Shown: positions 1-36,548 of the stretch, in pieces
How the letters are laid out: each line of letters begins with the position of its first letter
Position numbering within the stretch: position 1 is the first letter of the stretch
UHGV virus genome: UHGV-0383210
Source: a virus
Reading direction: 5' to 3' (one strand)
Length of the DNA stretch: 36,548 nucleotides
The notes under the pieces: generated by a model
What the model saw: only the letters and a program-made list of their open reading frames with translations
The model's database searches: none
Told to the model about the DNA's origin: nothing
Translations under genes and position numbers: made by a program

Positions 1-173
1 GGTCTAAGTCGATCTGCATCTTTAAAAAAATGCTCTATATCAGTTCCAGATATCCGCGCCTCTGAGTTTGTACATATTTTTTGTAATCTTTATTTAGTGC
101 TTACCCCTCAAGTTAAGGGATATACAGGAACTGATATAGAGCATTTTTTTAAAGATGCAGATCGACTTAGACC
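1..173. repeat. 47-bp perfect inverted repeat (arms 1-47 and 127-173, 79-bp spacer); left arm abuts the window edge and may extend further
   Basis: Reverse complement of 1-47 equals 127-173 exactly, read directly from the sequence. Confidence 0.9.
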
Positions 174-680
174 ACATAAAGGTAAGTTTTTCAATACAGT
201 CTCTAAGCGTGATCATGATAATGATTTGAGCAAGGAATCTTTCGCAACTCATATTGTTCATGCCCACAAGCATGAAATTGATTTTAGTGGATTTACAAGC
301 CTGTTAGAACGGTTAGTAAAAGTCATAAATCACTTTGACACTGTTAAGTAATATTATGATGCGCACTGATTATTCCTTATTCAGCTAAAATTTCTACTGT
401 AGTCCCAACTTCCGTTCCTCGCTCATAACAGACATTCACTACAGTTATGGTAGAAGGTATGCATGCTGGGTGGGGAAAGTATGAAGGAAAAGAAGACTGC
501 TGCGCCGTTTGTTGTCACATTTATCTTCATTGGCTATGCAAGTCGTAATACAAGGTGGGACAAAACTGAGACACATAAGGCCTCGCAATGACTTGCAAGG
601 CTTTACATGTTTTGATGTGGTGGGACGTGTGAGCGCAGTGTTGATGGGGTAATGCTTTGAATTAGAAGCGGATTCTTATA

Positions 681-726
681 ATTCGTAATGCGAAGGTCGT
701 AGGTTCGACTCCTATTATCGGCACCA
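681..726 (+). other. Attachment-site core: 46 nt matching the 3' part (anticodon loop to CCA) of tRNA-Thr(CGU) thrW; no tRNA 5' half upstream
   Basis: ATTCGTAATGCGAAGGTCGTAGGTTCGACTCCTATTATCGGCACCA matches recalled thrW 3' end; 640-680 cannot supply the GCCGATA acceptor strand; lies 15 bp beyond the integrase 3' end. Confidence 0.75.
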
Positions 727-740
727 TTTAAATCAATAAG

Positions 741-1904
741 TTACACATCATTAGTACCTTCCTTATTTTTTGACTGGGACAAATTTGGGACCGATGGGTT
801 CAGGATCGAGTCTATTTGCCGTGCGTGTTCGGTAAGGTGATTAGGTGCAAGGTGAGCATATCGACGAACCATTTCGATAGACTCCCAGCCTCCCATTTCC
901 TGTAACACTGACAACGGGACTCCGGCTTGAACCAGCCAACTTGCCCAGGTGTGTCTCAAGTCGTGAAATCTGAAATCATCAATACCAGCCCGTCTCAGAG
1001 CCGCTTTCCAGGCTGTGTTTGCGTCATACCGCATCTTCCTTACTGTTGGCGCTTTCGTTCCGTCTGGTTTGGTACAGCTTTCCTTGTACACAAATACCCA
1101 ACGGTGATGATTACCGATTTGTTTTTTCAATACGCGACATGCAGTATCATTCAGCGCAACGCCAATTGCGCGGTTTGATTTACTCTCTTCCGGGTTTATC
1201 CATGCCACCCGGCGCTGCATATCTATTTGTTGCCATTCAAGGTTGATGATGTTCGAGCGTCTTAAGCCTGTTGCCAGTGCAAATTCAACAACAGACTTTA
1301 ATGGCTCCGGACATTCATCAATCAGCCTTTGTGCTTCATGGGGCTCCAGCCAGCGGATCCGTTTATTCTTTGGTTGAGGCACTTTAATAATTGGTGCCTT
1401 ATCCAGCATTTTCCATTCACGCTCTGCGGCTCTTAGCAGGGCCTTTATAAATGAAAGATGCGTAGCCTTCGTTGCAACGGACGCTGGTTTTGGCGTGTAT
1501 TCTGGAACAGGTTTCCCTTTTTTTCTGCATGCTTCTGCCCTGAGTTTCCAGTTTTCCTCATGACGCCGGTTCGTCATTTTCTGCATTGCTGAATAAATTT
1601 TTGATTCAGTAATGTCTCTTAGTTGCATTCCTGCGAAATGTTGAAGCCAGAATCCGATCCGGCTTTTGTCATCGTCCAGTGATTTTTTATGTGCTTTCTC
1701 TTCAAGCCACCTGACACACGCTTCCTCGAACGTTATATCAGGTATTTCACCAAGTTTGCTGACCCGCCATGCTTCAGCCTTTAGCTTGTCATGGAGTTCT
1801 GTCGCCTGCCTTTTGTCCTTTGTTCCAAGAGACTGTTTAAATCTTTTACCGTTCGGCAATGTGAAACTGGCGTACCATATTTCACCTCTGCGGAAGAGTG
1901 ACAT
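741..1904 (-). CDS. int: Tyrosine integrase, P22-type (387 aa)
   Basis: N-terminus [24 protein letters not shown] matches recalled P22 Int; C-terminal HDLRHTWAS...RY catalytic motifs; SD GAGGA upstream; next to tRNA-derived att core. Confidence 0.9.
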
Positions 1905-2131
1905 TTTCTTTCCTCTGTTATGCCATCACCCGCGCTCACCTTGATAGTATGCAGCGGAGACTGAAGCGCCGCAATGCAGGCTTGTCGCGTTGTGAGGTAA
2001 GGAGATTTTGGTTTAGTGGGGTCTTTGCGTGTTGCCTGTAGGCGGCCTGTTCGTATCCAGTTGGTAGCGGTAGGTCTGGATATCTTGAGAAACTGACAGG
2101 CCTCATCGAGTGTGAGGCTGTATGATTCCAT
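1781..2131 (-). CDS. xis: Excisionase (116 aa from ATG at 2131; the ORF-track start at 2161 is GTG)
   Basis: Directly upstream of int and overlapping it; [31 protein letters not shown] has an AlpA/Xis-like HTH; SD GAGGT 5 nt before ATG. Confidence 0.7.
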
Positions 2132-2381
2132 GGTTACCTCTGCTTTTTGAACGCATGTCACGTAACTTCTTAATGTGTTCTGCCGTTTCGATCTCTTCTG
2201 CTATCCGATCTGCATCAGCTTTATTCACAGGTTCAAAGTCATGATTAAAGCGGAACATGCTGGCGATACATGTTCTGCCTTTTCGGATGTAGTGAACTTT
2301 GTTGTGGGTAGAACGCAGGATTTTGCAGGGAGTGCCGTGGTGGTCGACGTACCAGGTGTTAGGAAAAATGATTCTGAACAT
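2103..2381 (-). CDS. Hypothetical early-left protein (92 aa)
   Basis: ORF in leftward early operon; overlaps xis start by 29 nt; no recognised motif. Confidence 0.35.
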   Translation of the reverse strand: MFRIIFPNTWYVDHHGTPCKILRSTHNKVHYIRKGRTCIASMFRFNHDFEPVNKADADRIAEEIETAEHIKKLRDMRSKSRGNHGIIQPHTR

Positions 2382-2428
2382 TTTTACACCTCAGTTGGAC
2401 GATGTTGAAATTTGCTGCTTTGAGGCCA

Positions 2429-2647
2429 TCACAATCCCCATTGTTTGTTCTTAAGTTCGATCTCCTCCTGGCAACTTGCACAAGTCCGACAACCCTGAAC
2501 GGCCAGGCGTCTTCGTTCATCTATGGGATCGCCACACTCACAACAATGAGTGGCAGATATAACCTGGTGGTTCAGACGACGCATTTTTATTGCTGTATTG
2601 CGCTGTAATTCTTCGATTTCTGATGCTGAATCAATGATGTCTGCCAT
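2429..2647 (-). CDS. TraR/DksA-family C4 zinc-finger protein (72 aa)
   Basis: CCECGDPIDERRRLAVQGCRTCASC four-cysteine motif typical of phage TraR/DksA-like proteins. Confidence 0.65.
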   Translation of the reverse strand: MADIIDSASEIEELQRNTAIKMRRLNHQVISATHCCECGDPIDERRRLAVQGCRTCASCQEEIELKNKQWGL

Positions 2648-2745
2648 CTTCCATTAATCCCTGAATTGTTGGTTAATACGCTTGAGGGTGAATGCGAATA
2701 ATAAAAAGGGAGCCTGTAGCTCCATGATGATTTTGTTTTTCATGT

Positions 2746-3027
2746 TCACCGTTCCTTAAAGACGCCGTTTAACATGCCGATCGCCAGGCTTAAATGAGTC
2801 GGTGTGAATCCCATCAGCGTTACCGTTTCGCGGTGCTTCTTCAGTACGCTACGGCAAATGTCATCGACGTTTTTATCCGGAAACTGCTGTCTGGCTTTTT
2901 TGATTTCATAATTATCCTGACGGGCAATACTGCGAAGGGCGTTTTCTTGCTGAGGTGTCACTGAACAAGTCCCATGTCGGCAAGCATAAGCACACAGAAT
3001 ATGAAGCCCGCTGCCAGAAAAATGCAT
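2746..3027 (-). CDS. Hypothetical protein (93 aa)
   Basis: ORF in same orientation as the early-left operon, starts 10 nt after the upstream ORF stop. Confidence 0.35.
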   Translation of the reverse strand: MHFSGSGLHILCAYACRHGTCSVTPQQENALRSIARQDNYEIKKARQQFPDKNVDDICRSVLKKHRETVTLMGFTPTHLSLAIGMLNGVFKER

Positions 3028-3037
3028 TCAGTGGTTG

Positions 3038-3229
3038 TCATACCTGGTCTCTCTCATCTGCTTCTGCTTTCGCCACCATCATTTCCAGCTTTTGTGAAAG
3101 GGATGTGGCTAACGTATGAAATTCTTCGTCTGTTTCTACTGGTATTGGCACAAACCTGACTCCAATTTGAGCGAGGCTATGTGCCATCTCGATACTCGTT
3201 CTTAACTCAACGGGAGATGCTTTGTGCAT
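3038..3229 (-). CDS. Hypothetical small protein (63 aa)
   Basis: ORF in early-left operon between exo and xis. Confidence 0.4.
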   Translation of the reverse strand: MHKASPVELRTSIEMAHSLAQIGVRFVPIPVETDEEFHTLATSLSQKLEMMVAKAEADERDQV

Positions 3230-3390
3230 ACAGCCCCTCGTTTATTATTTATCTCCTTAGCCAGCCGCTGGGCTTTCAGTGGATTTCTGATAACAGAAAG
3301 GCCGGGAAATACCCAGCCTCGCTTTGTAAAGGAGTAGACGAAAGTGATCGCGCCTACCCGGATATTATCGTGAGGATGCGTCATCGCCAT
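3202..3390 (-). CDS. Hypothetical small protein (62 aa)
   Basis: ORF immediately downstream of exo; overlaps neighbours at both ends. Confidence 0.3.
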
Positions 3391-4061
3391 TGCTCCCCAA
3401 ATACAAAACCAATTTCAGCCAGTGCCTCGTCCATTTTTTCGATGAACTCCGGCACCATCTCGTCAAAACTCGCCATGTACTTTTCATCCCGCTCAACCAC
3501 GACATAATGCAGTCCTTCACGCTTCATACGCGGGTCATAGTTGGCAAAGTACCAGGCATCTTTTCGCGTCACCCACATGCTGTACTGCACCTGGGCCATG
3601 TAAGCCGACTTTATGGCCTCGAAACCACCGAGCCGGAACTTCATGAAATCCCGGGAGGTAAACGGGCATTTCAGCTCAAGGCCATTGCCGTCACTGCATA
3701 AACCATCGGGAGAGCAGGCGGTGCGCATACTTTCGTCGCGATAGATGATCGGGGATTCAGTAACATTCACGCCGGAAGTGAATTCAAACAGGGTTCTGGC
3801 GTCGTTCTCGTACTGTTTTCCCCAGGCCAGCGCCTTAGCATTAACTTCCGGAGCCACACCGGTGCAAACCTCAGCCAGCAGGGTGTGGAAGTAGGACATT
3901 TTCATGTCAGGCCACTTCTTTCCTGAGCGGGGCTTTGCTATCACGTTGTGAACTTCTGAAGCGGTGATGACGCCGAGCCGTAATTTGTGCCATGCATCAT
4001 CCCCCTGTTCGACAGCTCTCACGTCGATCCCGGTACGCTGCAGGATAATGTCCGGTGTCAT
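3381..4061 (-). CDS. exo: Lambda-type 5'-3' exonuclease Red-alpha (226 aa)
   Basis: Sequence [36 protein letters not shown] matches recalled lambda Exo nearly throughout. Confidence 0.95.
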
Positions 4062-4843
4062 GCTGCCACCTTCTGCTCAGTGGCTTTCTGTTTCAGGAAT
4101 CCAAGAGCTTTCACTGCTTCGGCTTGTGTCAGTTCTGACGATGCGCGAATGTCGCGGCGAAATATCTGGGAACAGAGCGGCAATAAGTCGTCATCCCATG
4201 TTTTATCCAGGGCGATCAGCAGAGTGTTAATCTCCTGCATGGTTTCATCGTTAACCGGAGTGATGTCGCGTTCCGGCTGACGTTCCGCAGTGTATGCAGT
4301 ATTTTCGACAATGCGCTCGGCTTCATCCTTGTCATAGATACCAGCAAATCCGAAGGCCAGACGGGCACACTGAATCATGGCTTTATGCCGTAACATCCGT
4401 TTGGGATGCGACTGCCACGGCCCCGTGATTTCTCTGCCTTCGCGAGTTTTGAATGGTTCGCGGCGGCATTCATCCATCCATTCGGTAACGCAGATCGGAT
4501 GATTGCGGTCTTTGCGGTAAATCCGGCATGTACAGGATTCATTGTCCTGCTCAAAGTCCATGCCATCAAACTGCTGGTTTTCATTGATGATGCGGGACCA
4601 GCCATCAACGCCCACCACCGGAACGATGCCGTTCTGCTTATCAGGGAAGGCGTAAATTTCTTTCGTCCACGGATTAAGGCCGTACTGGTTGGCGACGATC
4701 AACAATGCGATGAACTGCGCATCGCTGGCATCACCTTTAAATGCCGTCTGGCGAAGAGTGGTGATCAGTTCCTGTGGGTCGACAGAATCCATGCCGACAC
4801 GTTCAGCCAGCTTCCCTGCCAGCGTTGCGAGTGCTGTACTCAT
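4058..4843 (-). CDS. bet: Lambda-type single-strand annealing protein Red-beta (261 aa)
   Basis: [66 protein letters not shown] matches recalled lambda Bet; 4-nt overlap with exo. Confidence 0.95.
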
Positions 4844-4848
4844 CCGTT

Positions 4849-5265
4849 TTATACCTCTGAATCAATATCAACCTGGTGGCGGGCAATAGTTTCAACCATG
4901 TACCGGATGTGTTCTGCCATGCGCTCCTGAAACTCAACATCGTCATCAAACGCACGGGTAATGGCTTTTTTGCTGGCCCCGTGGCGTTGCAAATGATCGA
5001 TGCATAGCGATTCAAACAGGTGCTGGGGCAGGCCTTTTTCCATGTCGTCTGCCAGTTCTGCCTCTTTCTCTTCACGGGCGATCTGCTGGTAGTGACGCGC
5101 CCAGCTCTGAGCCTCAATACGATCCTGAATGTAATAAGCGTTCATGGCTGAACTCCTGAAATAGCTGTGAAAATATCGCCCGCGAAATGCCGGGCTGATT
5201 AGGAAAACAGGAAAGGGGGTTAGTGAATGCTTTTGCTTGATCTCAGTTTCAGTATTAATATCCAT
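4849..5265 (-). CDS. gam: Gam, RecBCD inhibitor (138 aa)
   Basis: [49 protein letters not shown] matches recalled lambda Gam. Confidence 0.95.
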
Positions 5266-5363
5266 TTTTTATAAGCGTCGACGGCCTCACGAAACATCTT
5301 TTCATCGCCAATAAAAGTGGCGATAGTGAATTTAGTCTGGATAGCCATAAGTGTTTGATCCAT
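5220..5363 (-). CDS. kil: Kil host-killing protein (47 aa; internal ATG of ORF 5220..5489)
   Basis: [47 protein letters not shown] matches recalled lambda Kil; overlaps cIII 3' end out of frame as in lambda. Confidence 0.85.
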
Positions 5364-5496
5364 TTTTTGGGACTCCTGGCTGATTAAGTATGTCGATAAG
5401 GCGTTTCCATCCGTCACGTAATTTACGGGTGATTCGTTCAAGTAAAGATTCGGAAGGGCAGCCAGCAACAGGCCACCCTGCAATGGCATATTGCAT
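5332..5496 (-). CDS. cIII: cIII, FtsH inhibitor (54 aa; below ORF-track size cutoff)
   Basis: Hand translation of reverse strand gives MQYAIAGWPVAG...[23 protein letters not shown], matching recalled lambda cIII. Confidence 0.85.
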   Translation of the reverse strand: MQYAIAGWPVAGCPSESLLERITRKLRDGWKRLIDILNQPGVPKNGSNTYGYPD

Positions 5497-5551
5497 GGTG
5501 TGCTCCTTATTTATACATAACGAAAAACGCCTCGAGTGAAGCGTTATTGGT

Positions 5552-5583
5552 ATGCATATAAAAAGGCCCTCACATTAGAGGGC
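5552..5583 (-). terminator. Putative rho-independent terminator in leftward operon between ral and cIII
   Basis: Minus-strand hairpin GCCCTC-taatgt-GAGGGC followed by CTTTTTATAT. Confidence 0.4.
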
Positions 5584-6826: not shown

Positions 6827-8179
<1,353 letters not shown>

Positions 8180-12596: not shown

Positions 12597-12671
12597 GGGT
12601 CAGTCGTATAAAGGTCATTACGGAAGGCTGTTAACCTTCTTATCGTGGTTCGAGTCCACGCTGTCCCGCCA
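12597..12671 (+). tRNA. Phage-encoded tRNA, anticodon GUU (Asn) by hand fold
   Basis: Cloverleaf folded by hand: acceptor GGGTCAG/CTGTCCC (one T-T mismatch), anticodon stem GAAGG/CCTTC, loop CTGTTAA, T-loop TTCGAGT, discriminator G, CCA. Confidence 0.55.
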
Positions 12672-12676
12672 AATAT

Positions 12677-12752
12677 GCTGGTTTAGCTCCAATGGTAGAG
12701 CGGTCGCCTTGTAAGCGAATGGGTAGCGGTTCAAGTCCGTTAACCAGCACCA
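12677..12752 (+). tRNA. Phage-encoded tRNA, anticodon UGU (Thr) by hand fold
   Basis: Acceptor GCTGGTT/AACCAGC perfect, D-stem GCTC/GAGC, anticodon loop CTTGTAA, T-arm GGTTCAAGTCC, discriminator A, CCA. Confidence 0.65.
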
Positions 12753-26988: not shown

Positions 26989-27441
26989 ATGGAATTCGAA
27001 ATCAAAGGCGTGAAATATCGCGTGGCAAAACTCAGCGTTTTTGACCAGCTGAAAGTGACCCGCAAACTTCTGCCGGTACTGGCGGGAATGATGTCAGATT
27101 TCGGGAGCATTCGCTCCCGTTTGCCTGCTGACGGCAAAATCGACACCGTGAAATTCGAGCAGTTAAAACCGGTGTTTGAAACCATGCTCCCGCGTATCGC
27201 TGAGGAACTGTCTTCCCTGACCGAAGATGACACCGATGCGATTATTCATCCCTGTCTTGCGGTGGTATCGCGGCGTCATATGGACGGATGGGTGCCGGTA
27301 TTTACCCAGGGCGAACTGATGTTTGATGATATTGACCTGCTGGTCATGCTGCAGCTGGTGGCGCGGGTGGTCGCCGATTCGCTGGGAAATTTTTTGCCTA
27401 CACCCCTTACCAGCACGACGCAGAGCCTGCAACAGGGCTGA
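26989..27441 (+). CDS. Tail assembly chaperone, short form (150 aa)
   Basis: Position before tape measure; slippery heptamer near 3' end. Confidence 0.6.
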   Translation: MEFEIKGVKYRVAKLSVFDQLKVTRKLLPVLAGMMSDFGSIRSRLPADGKIDTVKFEQLKPVFETMLPRIAEELSSLTEDDTDAIIHPCLAVVSRRHMDGWVPVFTQGELMFDDIDLLVMLQLVARVVADSLGNFLPTPLTSTTQSLQQG

Positions 27442-27638
27442 CGTTTAACAGCCTGCCGGACGGGCTGTCCTACCTTCTCAATCCGGTTGACGCCGGGTTA
27501 ATTCCTTATACAGCACTTAAAGATGGCTCTGTCGATTTGTACGACATTGCTCTCTTGAATGACCATCTGGCGGTAAAAGCGGATAACCAGCGGCGCATTG
27601 AGAAATGGAGAGAGGATAATGAACGCCGAGACTATTAA
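26989..27638 (+). CDS. Tail assembly chaperone, predicted -1 frameshift fusion product (shift at A_AAT_TTT 27387-27393, stop TAA 27636-27638)
   Basis: Hand translation of -1 frame after heptamer gives 81 stop-free codons (KFFAYTPYQHDAEPATGLTFNSLPDGLSYLLNPVDAGLIPYTALKDGSVDLYDIALLNDHLAVKADNQRRIEKWREDNERRDY). Confidence 0.6.
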
Positions 27639-36197: not shown

Positions 36198-36548
36198 TGG
36201 CGAAAAATGACTTTAAAGCGTTTGCAACGGATCGAAATGCCAATGTTATGTCGCAGGAGGAATGGGAAGCGTTGCCTGCGCTTTTATCCGGATTTACAGC
36301 AGGGAAAGCATCCAGTGCGCAAGTCAATAAGGTTATTCGGCAGGCCAGCTTTATTGCTGCAGCTCTGGCCCAGTTTGTAAGTGACAAAACGCAACGGGAT
36401 GTGCTTGATAATGGTGATCTGCCCGGTTTTGTTGAATTGCTGGGATCGGGGTTTGCTGTTGAATACCTGAGCCGCAAGAATCCGTTTGGTGATATCAAAT
36501 CGGATGGCACGGTGAAAACGGCTCTCGAAAACCTTGGTTTGGGAGAAG
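36197..36548 (+). CDS. Tail fibre protein, N-terminal part only (truncated by window end)
   Basis: Open frame from ATG 36197 to window edge; position after baseplate I-like gene. Confidence 0.55.

What the first reader, a model, noticed from the sequence alone, without database searches (positions are those of the whole stretch)
681..726. Integrase sits beside a 46-bp tRNA-Thr 3' fragment with no tRNA 5' half: intact attP or a tandem-element junction
The 46 nt at 681-726 match the 3' end of thrW through CCA, the target used by P22-type integrases, but the sequence just upstream cannot form the rest of the tRNA. If this were the host-prophage junction carrying the reconstituted tRNA, the 5' half would have to be here. 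So either the window is an unintegrated phage genome with an intact attP, and 1-680 is phage arm DNA, or 1-680 is the end of a second element integrated in tandem at thrW.
Basis: partly seen in the sequence, partly recalled or inferred. Interest (0 to 1): 0.5.

Follow-up and report, generated by a model that had tools for sequence, protein, structure and literature searches.

The report
Intact phage attachment site (attP)
The 46-base tRNA-Thr fragment next to the integrase is the ordinary, already well-described attachment site (attP) of a P22/SfV-type temperate phage, seen here in its un-integrated, joined-ends form, so it is real but not new.

Summary
Window 681-726 is an exact copy of the last 46 nt of E. 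coli thrW through CCA. No tRNA 5' half precedes it, and it occurs once in the window.

It is the core of a complete attP. The left flank (43-680) is identical to the attR-side end of TST3-type prophages. The right flank (727 onward, int, xis) is identical to their attL-side end. In integrated relatives these two ends lie about 44 kb apart; here one core joins them.

The integrase is 90% identical to P22 Int. The P arm, core and P' arm align with the annotated attP of SfI and P22, including four same-strand TGGGAC repeats and an IHF consensus.

So 1-680 is the phage's own arm plus the 3' end of a cargo retron gene, not host DNA and not a different element.

The window looks like a whole assembly contig. 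It ends exactly at an invertase crossover site in the tail-fibre gene, begins with a 42-nt fold-back, and runs through the core unbroken. That favours free, circular or replicating phage DNA. A tandem double lysogen of the same phage gives the same joint, has a real precedent (strain ET201), and cannot be excluded from the window alone.

Already known; low interest.

The parts
1..42 (.). Fold-back at the left end. Bases 1-47 are the perfect reverse complement of 127-173, and bases 1-42 are not collinear with the gene that 43 onward belongs to. Probably a contig-end or chimeric-read artefact.
   Evidence: the junction is absent from the viral, genome and metagenome collections
43..351 (+). 3' end (last 102 codons plus stop) of a retron type I-C RT-Toprim gene (Ec67 family). 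This is phage cargo next to attP.
   Evidence: 100% identical to residues 510-611 of the 611-aa TST3 protein. That protein scores 4.8e-222 to PADLOC RT-Toprim_I-C. RefSeq annotates it as retron Ec67 family.
400..615 (+). Mosaic module with a small ORF (463-591, 42 aa). It also lies upstream of the unrelated attP sites of lambda and phage 21.
   Evidence: annotated 'putative membrane protein' in phage 21
556..680 (+). P arm of attP. It is conserved with SfI/SfII/SfIV (95-97%) and P22, and holds TGGGAC repeats at 556-561 and 621-626 (candidate arm-type Int sites).
580..601 (-). Hairpin on the int-sense strand. Terminator-like; its position is analogous to lambda tI/sib (inferred).
   Evidence: the SfII record annotates 'terminator' over the matching stretch (H136)
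650..662 (-). IHF-like site with one mismatch to the consensus (candidate H site).
681..726 (+). attP core: the 46-bp identity segment with the 3' end of thrW. The 23 bp annotated as the core in the P22 record correspond to 688-710.
727..830 (+). P' arm. It holds a perfect IHF consensus at 731-743 and TGGGAC repeats at 775-780 and 786-791, and it overlaps the int 3' end.
741..1904 (-). Tyrosine integrase, P22 Int family (387 aa).
   Evidence: PF00589 at 3.2e-48; 90% identical to P22 Int over the full length
1781..2131 (-). Excisionase-like HTH protein that overlaps the int start.
   Evidence: PF12728 HTH_17; annotated xis at the same position in SfI and P22
36522..36547 (+). Hin/Gin/Pin-type invertase crossover site inside the tail-fibre gene. 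The window ends one base later, which marks a contig break at an invertible segment.
   Evidence: 20/26 match to hixL; an inverted pair flanks the tail-fibre cassette in ET201; homology to SfV stops at 36548

Best explanation
Window 556 to about 830 is the complete attP of a temperate mosaic phage that integrates into thrW. The phage has a lambda/SfI-like early region, a SEN34/611R5-like myovirus late region, and a P22-type int-xis module.

Expected mechanism, by analogy with P22 and lambda (not tested here): the Int N-terminal domain binds the TGGGAC arm-type repeats, two in each arm. IHF bends the arms at the sites flanking the core. The catalytic domain exchanges strands inside the 46-bp segment shared with thrW, probably within 688-710.

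After integration the phage-borne 46 bp replaces the 3' part of thrW, so the tRNA stays intact at attL next to int. The displaced host copy ends up at attR, next to the P arm and the cargo genes.

In the window the two arms are joined by a single core, so the DNA has the un-integrated topology. Bases 1-680 are therefore the phage's own right-hand end: cargo retron 3' end, small-ORF module and P arm.

Shown: the identity of the core, the collinearity of both arms with attR and attL of integrated relatives, homology to annotated attP sites, Int family membership, and motif enrichment.

Inferred: the binding-site assignments, the crossover position, and that the sequenced molecule was a free, circular or replicating phage genome rather than a tandem array.
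For: The core equals the thrW 3' 46 nt.

The window maps onto the 44.0-kb TST3 prophage as a circular permutation. Window 681-5555 and onward match the attL/int side, and 43-743 match the attR side at 99.7%. The 60 nt on each side of the core are identical to the attR-left and attL-right flanks.

The P arm, core and P' arm align with SfI, whose record annotates a 46-bp attP core 14 nt from the int stop, and with P22. Int is 90% identical to P22 Int.

Four of the seven same-strand TGGGAC copies in 36.5 kb lie within 271 nt of the core (Poisson P about 3e-7). They are invariant in the window/SfI/P22 alignment. A perfect IHF consensus lies at 731-743.

Census: 10 of 10 chromosomal places with this exact Int are attL. 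Eight of 10 places with the P-arm ORF are attR. The joined form is seen only in phage genome records, four IMG/VR contigs, 39-42 kb circular 'plasmid' records and one tandem lysogen.

Literature: a 46-bp attP identical in SfI, SfIV and SfV, targeting thrW (PMC3851460).

For a free form rather than a tandem array: the window behaves like a whole contig that broke at an invertible-segment boundary yet runs through the core without a break. In a tandem or partly excised lysogen the assembly graph would branch at both core boundaries.
Against: The window is shorter than one phage length. About 7.6 kb of the TST3-type genome is missing between its end and its start. A second core copy, or thrW itself, one phage-length away cannot be seen.

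A tandem double lysogen of a related phage with an identical P-core-P' joint exists in a complete chromosome (ET201).

The left end carries an evident artefact (1-42), so the assembly is not error-free, and an in-silico join across the 46-bp repeat cannot be formally excluded.

The argument from assembly-graph behaviour assumes a short-read de Bruijn assembly, and that is not known. No binding or recombination data exist for this particular site.
Confidence: 0.75

Rival explanations
1. The joint lies between two head-to-tail copies of the same phage integrated at thrW (a tandem double lysogen). Bases 1-680 would be the right end of the upstream copy.
For: The sequence would be indistinguishable at the joint. 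The ET201 chromosome has exactly this arrangement: three cores about 40 kb apart (attL, P-core-P', attR), with int and DUF262 cargo repeated. Tandem SfI+SfX at thrW has been shown by PCR (PMC3306764).
Against: This is rare: 1 of 20,395 E. coli records covers most of the joint on a chromosome. In a short-read assembly, a two-copy prophage branches at both edges of the core, so the contig should stop there. This contig did stop at the invertible segment but not at the core. Only one core copy is present in 36.5 kb, although the window is too short for that to be decisive.
Confidence: 0.14
2. Bases 1-680 are the end of a different mobile element integrated in tandem at thrW.
For: thrW is serially occupied in E. 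coli. CP4-6-like genes follow attR in TST3 and ET201, and heterologous SfI+SfX tandems exist.
Against: In 10 chromosomes, window 43-680 is at the attR end of thrW prophages of this group. In TST3 the rest of that prophage is collinear with the window at 96-99% identity. Bases 556-680 are the cognate P arm: they carry the same TGGGAC repeats as the P' arm and are 95-97% identical to the SfI/SfII/SfIV P arm.
Confidence: 0.02
3. Assembly artefact: a single integrated prophage whose attL and attR were joined in silico through the shared 46-bp core.
For: The contig has another evident artefact at its left end, the 42-nt fold-back. A 46-bp exact repeat is longer than some assembler k-mers.
Against: Standard assemblers stop at a 2-in/2-out repeat node rather than choosing the P to P' path. 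The same joint is a real, repeatedly observed molecule in phage genomes and circular records. The contig broke cleanly at the other ambiguous site, the invertible segment.
Confidence: 0.08

Closest known systems
attP of Shigella serotype-converting phages SfI / SfII / SfIV / SfV
   Same: The 46-bp core is identical. The P arm (556-680) is 95-97% identical, and the whole 556-2200 stretch, including int and xis, is 97-98.5% identical. The core sits 14 nt from the int stop in both. The target is thrW next to proA (PMC3851460).
   Different: The cargo upstream of the P arm differs: gtrA/B/type-specific O-antigen genes in the Sf phages, a retron RT-Toprim here, plus a small-ORF module at 400-555 that the Sf phages lack. 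The late genes are of a different myovirus type (SEN34/611R5-like), not the SfV HK97-head/Mu-tail type.
Salmonella phage P22 attP / Int / Xis
   Same: Int is 90% identical over all 387 aa. The 46 bp are identical, and the TGGGAC arm repeats and the int-xis overlap are conserved.
   Different: The arms are only about 81% identical at the DNA level. P22 is a podovirus with gtrABC next to the P arm.
TST3-type thrW prophage of E. coli (NZ_CP154406, 44.0 kb) and its relatives in about 10 complete genomes
   Same: The genome is collinear with the window at 96-99.7% identity over the shared segments. It has the same int end and the same retron/P-arm end.
   Different: It is integrated, so the two ends are separated as attL and attR. 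It carries an ISVsa5 insertion in the tail-fibre gene, and its immunity and lysis-region segments differ.
Phage lambda attP (the paradigm for heterobivalent tyrosine integrases)
   Same: The architecture inferred here is the same: arm-type repeats on both arms, IHF sites flanking the core, Xis next to Int, and a hairpin beyond the P arm in the position of tI/sib (general knowledge of lambda).
   Different: The core and target differ: lambda uses a 15-bp core in an intergenic attB rather than a tRNA gene. The arm-site sequence is different, and Int is only distantly related.

Membership tests
P22/SfV-type thrW attP | Core identical to the 3' 46 nt of thrW, through CCA | tested here: met
   46/46 identical to the TST3 thrW; identical to the annotated SfI core
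P22/SfV-type thrW attP | Adjacent tyrosine integrase of the P22 Int lineage, reading towards the core | tested here: met
   PF00589 at 3.2e-48; 90% identical to P22 Int. The R, K, HxxR, W and Y catalytic motifs are visible in the translation.
P22/SfV-type thrW attP | Both arms present and contiguous (P on one side of the core, P' on the other) | tested here: met
   The flanks are identical to the attR-left and attL-right flanks of the TST3 prophage, and they align with SfI and P22 attP.
P22/SfV-type thrW attP | Repeated arm-type Int binding sites on both arms | tested here: met
   At sequence level only. TGGGAC occurs at 556, 621, 775 and 786, all on the same strand, which is 4 of 7 in the window (P about 3e-7). 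The copies are invariant across the window, SfI and P22. Binding was not tested.
P22/SfV-type thrW attP | IHF sites flanking the core | tested here: inconclusive
   One perfect consensus (731-743) and one with a single mismatch (650-662). There are 3 perfect matches in the whole window.
P22/SfV-type thrW attP | Excisionase (recombination directionality factor) next to int | tested here: met
   HTH_17 protein at 1781-2131, overlapping int. It is annotated xis at the same position in SfI and P22.
P22/SfV-type thrW attP | Supports Int-dependent recombination with thrW | not testable with these tools
   Indirect only: very many genomes carry this exact Int integrated at thrW (indexed in 28,578 blocks; 10 of 10 inspected are attL).
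Host-prophage junction attL with a reconstituted tRNA | Complete thrW (5' half plus core) abutting the int side | tested here: not met
   ARAGORN and Rfam find no tRNA at 651-726. The left flank is the P arm.
Tandem-prophage junction | Further core copies (attL, attR) one phage-length away on either side | not testable with these tools
   The window (36.5 kb) is shorter than the roughly 44-kb phage unit and holds one core. The ET201 precedent shows what it would look like.

The most novel reading that the evidence does not exclude
The most novel reading not excluded concerns the left end. The 42-nt fold-back that truncates the retron RT-Toprim gene at codon 510 could be a real inverted duplication in the phage genome rather than a sequencing artefact. 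In that case this would be a free, circulating phage whose cargo retron has been disrupted by a palindromic rearrangement next to attP. A milder version is that an intact type I-C retron travels as a moron in the variable slot next to attP of an actively excising phage.
Probability: 0.06. Interest if true: 0.3.

Novelty: already known. Interest (0 to 1): 0.1.

Why it matters
It matters little beyond correct annotation. The finding shows that this record represents the phage in its un-integrated topology. Bases 1-680 should therefore be annotated as phage DNA (P arm plus cargo) and not as host flank. The tRNA-like 46-mer should be annotated as the attP core and not as a tRNA pseudogene. It also predicts the integration site (thrW, next to proA) for this phage. 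The att site, its core, its target and tandem occupancy of thrW have all been described for P22 and the Shigella Sf phages.

Tried and rejected
1. A complete or degenerate tRNA at 651-726: ARAGORN and an Rfam E<=1 scan were negative. The only Rfam hits in 1-3000 were spurious microRNA-precursor matches caused by the 1-47/127-173 inverted repeat.

2. Host DNA in 1-680: rejected. Bases 43-351 are a retron gene carried at the attR end of prophages. Bases 400-615 also occur in lambda and phage 21 upstream of their own attP sites. Bases 556-680 are the SfI/P22 P arm.

3. Finding the source contig:
- The fold-back junction was searched in the viral, genome and metagenome collections, with 0 hits.
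- The exact 80-nt attP joint gave 0 hits in the metagenome and species-representative genome collections, and 6 in IMG/VR.
- A lookup of a gene next to the immunity repressor (ORF 6827-7303) found only one 3.8-kb Logan contig.

4. The closest virion-derived relatives for the late genes (vB_EcoM-611R5 and similar) were checked for the same att module. They have a different early region and no P22-type int.

5. Retron ncRNA upstream of the RT in the TST3 copy: no Rfam hit at E<=0.1.

6. The primary biochemical papers on P22 arm-type, IHF and Xis sites were not in the searchable library. The sub-site assignments therefore rest on motif statistics and conservation, not on published footprints.

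Full report
**Observation**

Window 681-726 reads ATTCGTAATGCGAAGGTCGTAGGTTCGACTCCTATTATCGGCACCA. I took the 76-nt thrW gene from the annotated E. coli TST3 chromosome. The window 46-mer is identical to its last 46 nt, from the anticodon loop (anticodon CGT) through CCA.

The 46-mer occurs once in the window even when 3 mismatches are allowed, and never in 100 shuffles. ARAGORN finds only the phage-borne tRNA-Asn and tRNA-Thr(TGT) at 12597-12752. An Rfam scan of 1-3000 at E<=1 finds no tRNA. The 30 nt upstream of the core do not resemble the thrW 5' half.

**What the flanks are**

ORF 741-1904 (minus strand, 387 aa) is a tyrosine recombinase (PF00589, 3.2e-48). It is 90% identical to P22 Int over its whole length. 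It overlaps an HTH_17 excisionase-like ORF at 1781-2131.

To the left of the core:
- Bases 43-348 encode the last 102 residues, at 100% identity, of a 611-aa protein annotated 'retron Ec67 family RNA-directed DNA polymerase/endonuclease'. The full-length TST3 copy matches PADLOC RT-Toprim_I-C at 4.8e-222.
- Bases 400-615 are a small mosaic module. It also lies just upstream of the unrelated attP sites of lambda and phage 21, where the phage 21 record annotates a small putative membrane protein.
- Bases 556-680 are 95-97% identical to the stretch immediately left of the annotated attP core in SfI, SfII and SfIV. They are also conserved in P22.

**The decisive comparison**

In TST3 a 44.0-kb prophage lies between proBA-thrW and CP4-6-like genes. 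Window 681 onward maps to the thrW/int end. Window 43-743 maps to the opposite end at 99.7% identity, about 44 kb away.

Printing the three junctions side by side shows two things. The 60 nt left of the window's core are identical to the 60 nt left of the TST3 attR core. The 60 nt right of the window's core are identical to the 60 nt right of the TST3 attL core. The window joint is therefore P arm - core - P' arm, which is attP. The window is a circular permutation of this prophage type. About 7.6 kb (tail-fibre distal part, invertase remnant, a type IV restriction gene and the 5' part of the retron) is missing between its right and left ends.

**Census**

- The exact integrase sequence is extremely common, indexed in 28,578 blocks. 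All 10 places returned are attL: thrW 5' half + core + P', followed by proA-proB-phoE.
- Of 10 places returned for the small P-arm ORF, 8 are attR and none is followed by int. In the other 2 my script found no core match.
- The joined form turned up in the SfI, SfV and SfII phage genomes and in four further IMG/VR contigs. It also occurs in several 39-42 kb circular records deposited as plasmids from Shigella, Salmonella and E. coli.
- It occurs on one chromosome, ET201.

ET201 is a tandem double lysogen. It has three cores about 40 kb apart (attL, P-core-P', attR), with the whole gene set repeated.

**Anatomy and likely mechanism**

TGGGAC occurs seven times on the plus strand of the whole window. 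Four of those copies lie within 271 nt around the core, two on each arm (556, 621; 775, 786), giving a Poisson P of about 3e-7. All four are invariant in the window/SfI/P22 alignment. I read them as arm-type Int sites.

A perfect IHF consensus lies at 731-743, and a one-mismatch match lies at 650-662. The 23 bp that the curated P22 record marks as the core correspond to window 688-710. An int-sense hairpin at 601-580 lies where the SfII record annotates a terminator, and its position parallels lambda tI/sib.

By analogy with lambda and P22 (established knowledge, not tested here), Int bridges arm and core sites, IHF bends the arms, and strand exchange inside the shared 46 bp integrates the phage. 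The phage copy then completes thrW at attL, and the displaced host copy sits at attR.

**Free phage or tandem array?**

The window cannot settle this directly, because it is shorter than one phage unit. Two features suggest it is an entire assembly contig.
- Its last bases are a 26-bp Hin/Gin-type invertase crossover site (36522-36547; 20/26 to hixL). In ET201 the same site occurs as an inverted pair flanking the tail-fibre cassette. Homology to the SfV tail fibre stops exactly at base 36548. This is the signature of an assembly graph that branches at an invertible segment.
- Its first 42 bases are a fold-back of 132-173, joined through a 5-nt microhomology. No complete E. coli genome covers bases 1-42 (matches to 1-680 begin at base 43), and the fold-back junction is in none of the three scanned collections.

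A contig that breaks at such ambiguities but runs straight through the att core implies that P-core-P' was the only, or the dominant, path in the reads. That fits free, circular or replicating phage DNA better than a tandem or partly excised lysogen, where the graph would branch at both core edges. This step is inference and assumes a short-read graph assembler.

I put free or circular phage DNA at about 0.75, a same-phage tandem at about 0.14, an in-silico misjoin at about 0.08, and a different tandem element at about 0.02.

**Comparison with what is known**

The 46-bp attP core shared by SfI, SfIV and SfV, its thrW target, and the placement of cargo genes next to int-attP are all published (PMC3851460). 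Tandem occupancy of thrW by SfI and SfX is published too (PMC3306764). The site meets every sequence-level criterion for a P22/SfV-type attP.

Only the cargo and the late-gene module differ from the named phages. The cargo here is a retron rather than gtr genes. The late module is 97% identical to vB_EcoM-611R5, which has a different early region.

The finding is real, correctly observed and correctly reasoned. It is an ordinary, already-known feature.

Noticed in passing
window 1-47 and 127-173: A perfect 47-nt inverted repeat with a 79-nt spacer. Bases 1-42 replace the true upstream sequence of the retron gene; the junction is at a 5-nt GTTCC microhomology. No complete E. coli genome covers bases 1-42, and the junction is absent from the three scanned public collections. 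It is probably a fold-back chimera at a contig end. It also caused spurious Rfam microRNA-precursor hits.
   Followed up: partly
window 43-351; TST3 locus L003 2560-4395: The gene next to the P arm is a retron type I-C RT-Toprim (Ec67 family), of which the window holds only the last 102 codons. In TST3 its neighbour is a type IV methyl-directed restriction enzyme (DUF262). No retron ncRNA was found by Rfam near the TST3 copy.
   Followed up: partly
loci L001, L002, L028-L037 (slot between the tail-fibre invertase and the P arm): The slot immediately upstream of the P arm is hypervariable across relatives. It holds Avs2, DUF262 type IV REase, retron RTs of several lengths, EcoRII R-M, an HNH protein, a GIY-YIG protein, or ADH/LysR genes, and gtr genes in the Sf phages. 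It looks like a cargo or defence hotspot next to attP.
   Followed up: partly
window 36522-36547: A 26-bp Hin/Gin/Pin-type crossover site lies inside the tail-fibre gene, and the window ends one base after it. This implies an invertible host-range segment beyond the window. The invertase is truncated in TST3 and ET201 and intact (pinE) in pCE-O153H30-A.
   Followed up: partly
L001 (NZ_CP172337, plasmid pCE-O153H30-A, 44.8 kb circular): This circular 'plasmid' is a related phage genome in which attP carries an internal deletion. The deletion removes roughly window 573-691, that is, most of the P arm and the first 11 nt of the core. Such a site should be integration-defective, which may explain why the phage persists or was assembled as an episome.
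   Followed up: no
L002, L006, L007 (E. coli ET201 chromosome, about 3.565-3.644 Mb): A tandem double lysogen of an SfV-like phage at thrW, with three att cores about 40 kb apart. The record has many frameshifted genes, which suggests a noisy long-read assembly.
   Followed up: yes
hits H70/H13 (PK8276) and H73/H16 (TUM17668): In these two chromosomes the int end and the retron/P-arm end lie only about 16 kb apart, rather than about 44 kb. This suggests a large internal deletion derivative of the same prophage.
   Followed up: no
TST3 attR flank (L003 reverse strand, 46318-46334) versus window 727-743: The 17 nt after the core at attR (TTAAAATCAATAAGTTA) differ by one base from the start of the P' arm, including the IHF consensus. 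Similarity between phage and target flank therefore extends beyond the 46-bp core, possibly as a remnant of an earlier thrW element (CP4-6-like genes follow).
   Followed up: no
window 12597-12752: Phage-borne tRNA-Asn (GTT) and tRNA-Thr (TGT) lie downstream of the Q antiterminator region. They are also present in the TST3 prophage and are unrelated to the thrW fragment at attP.
   Followed up: no
window 400-615: A roughly 200-bp module with a 42-aa ORF (463-591) is shared at 84-90% identity with lambda (27319-27464) and phage 21, just upstream of their unrelated att sites. The phage 21 record annotates CII-binding-site matches within it.
   Followed up: no
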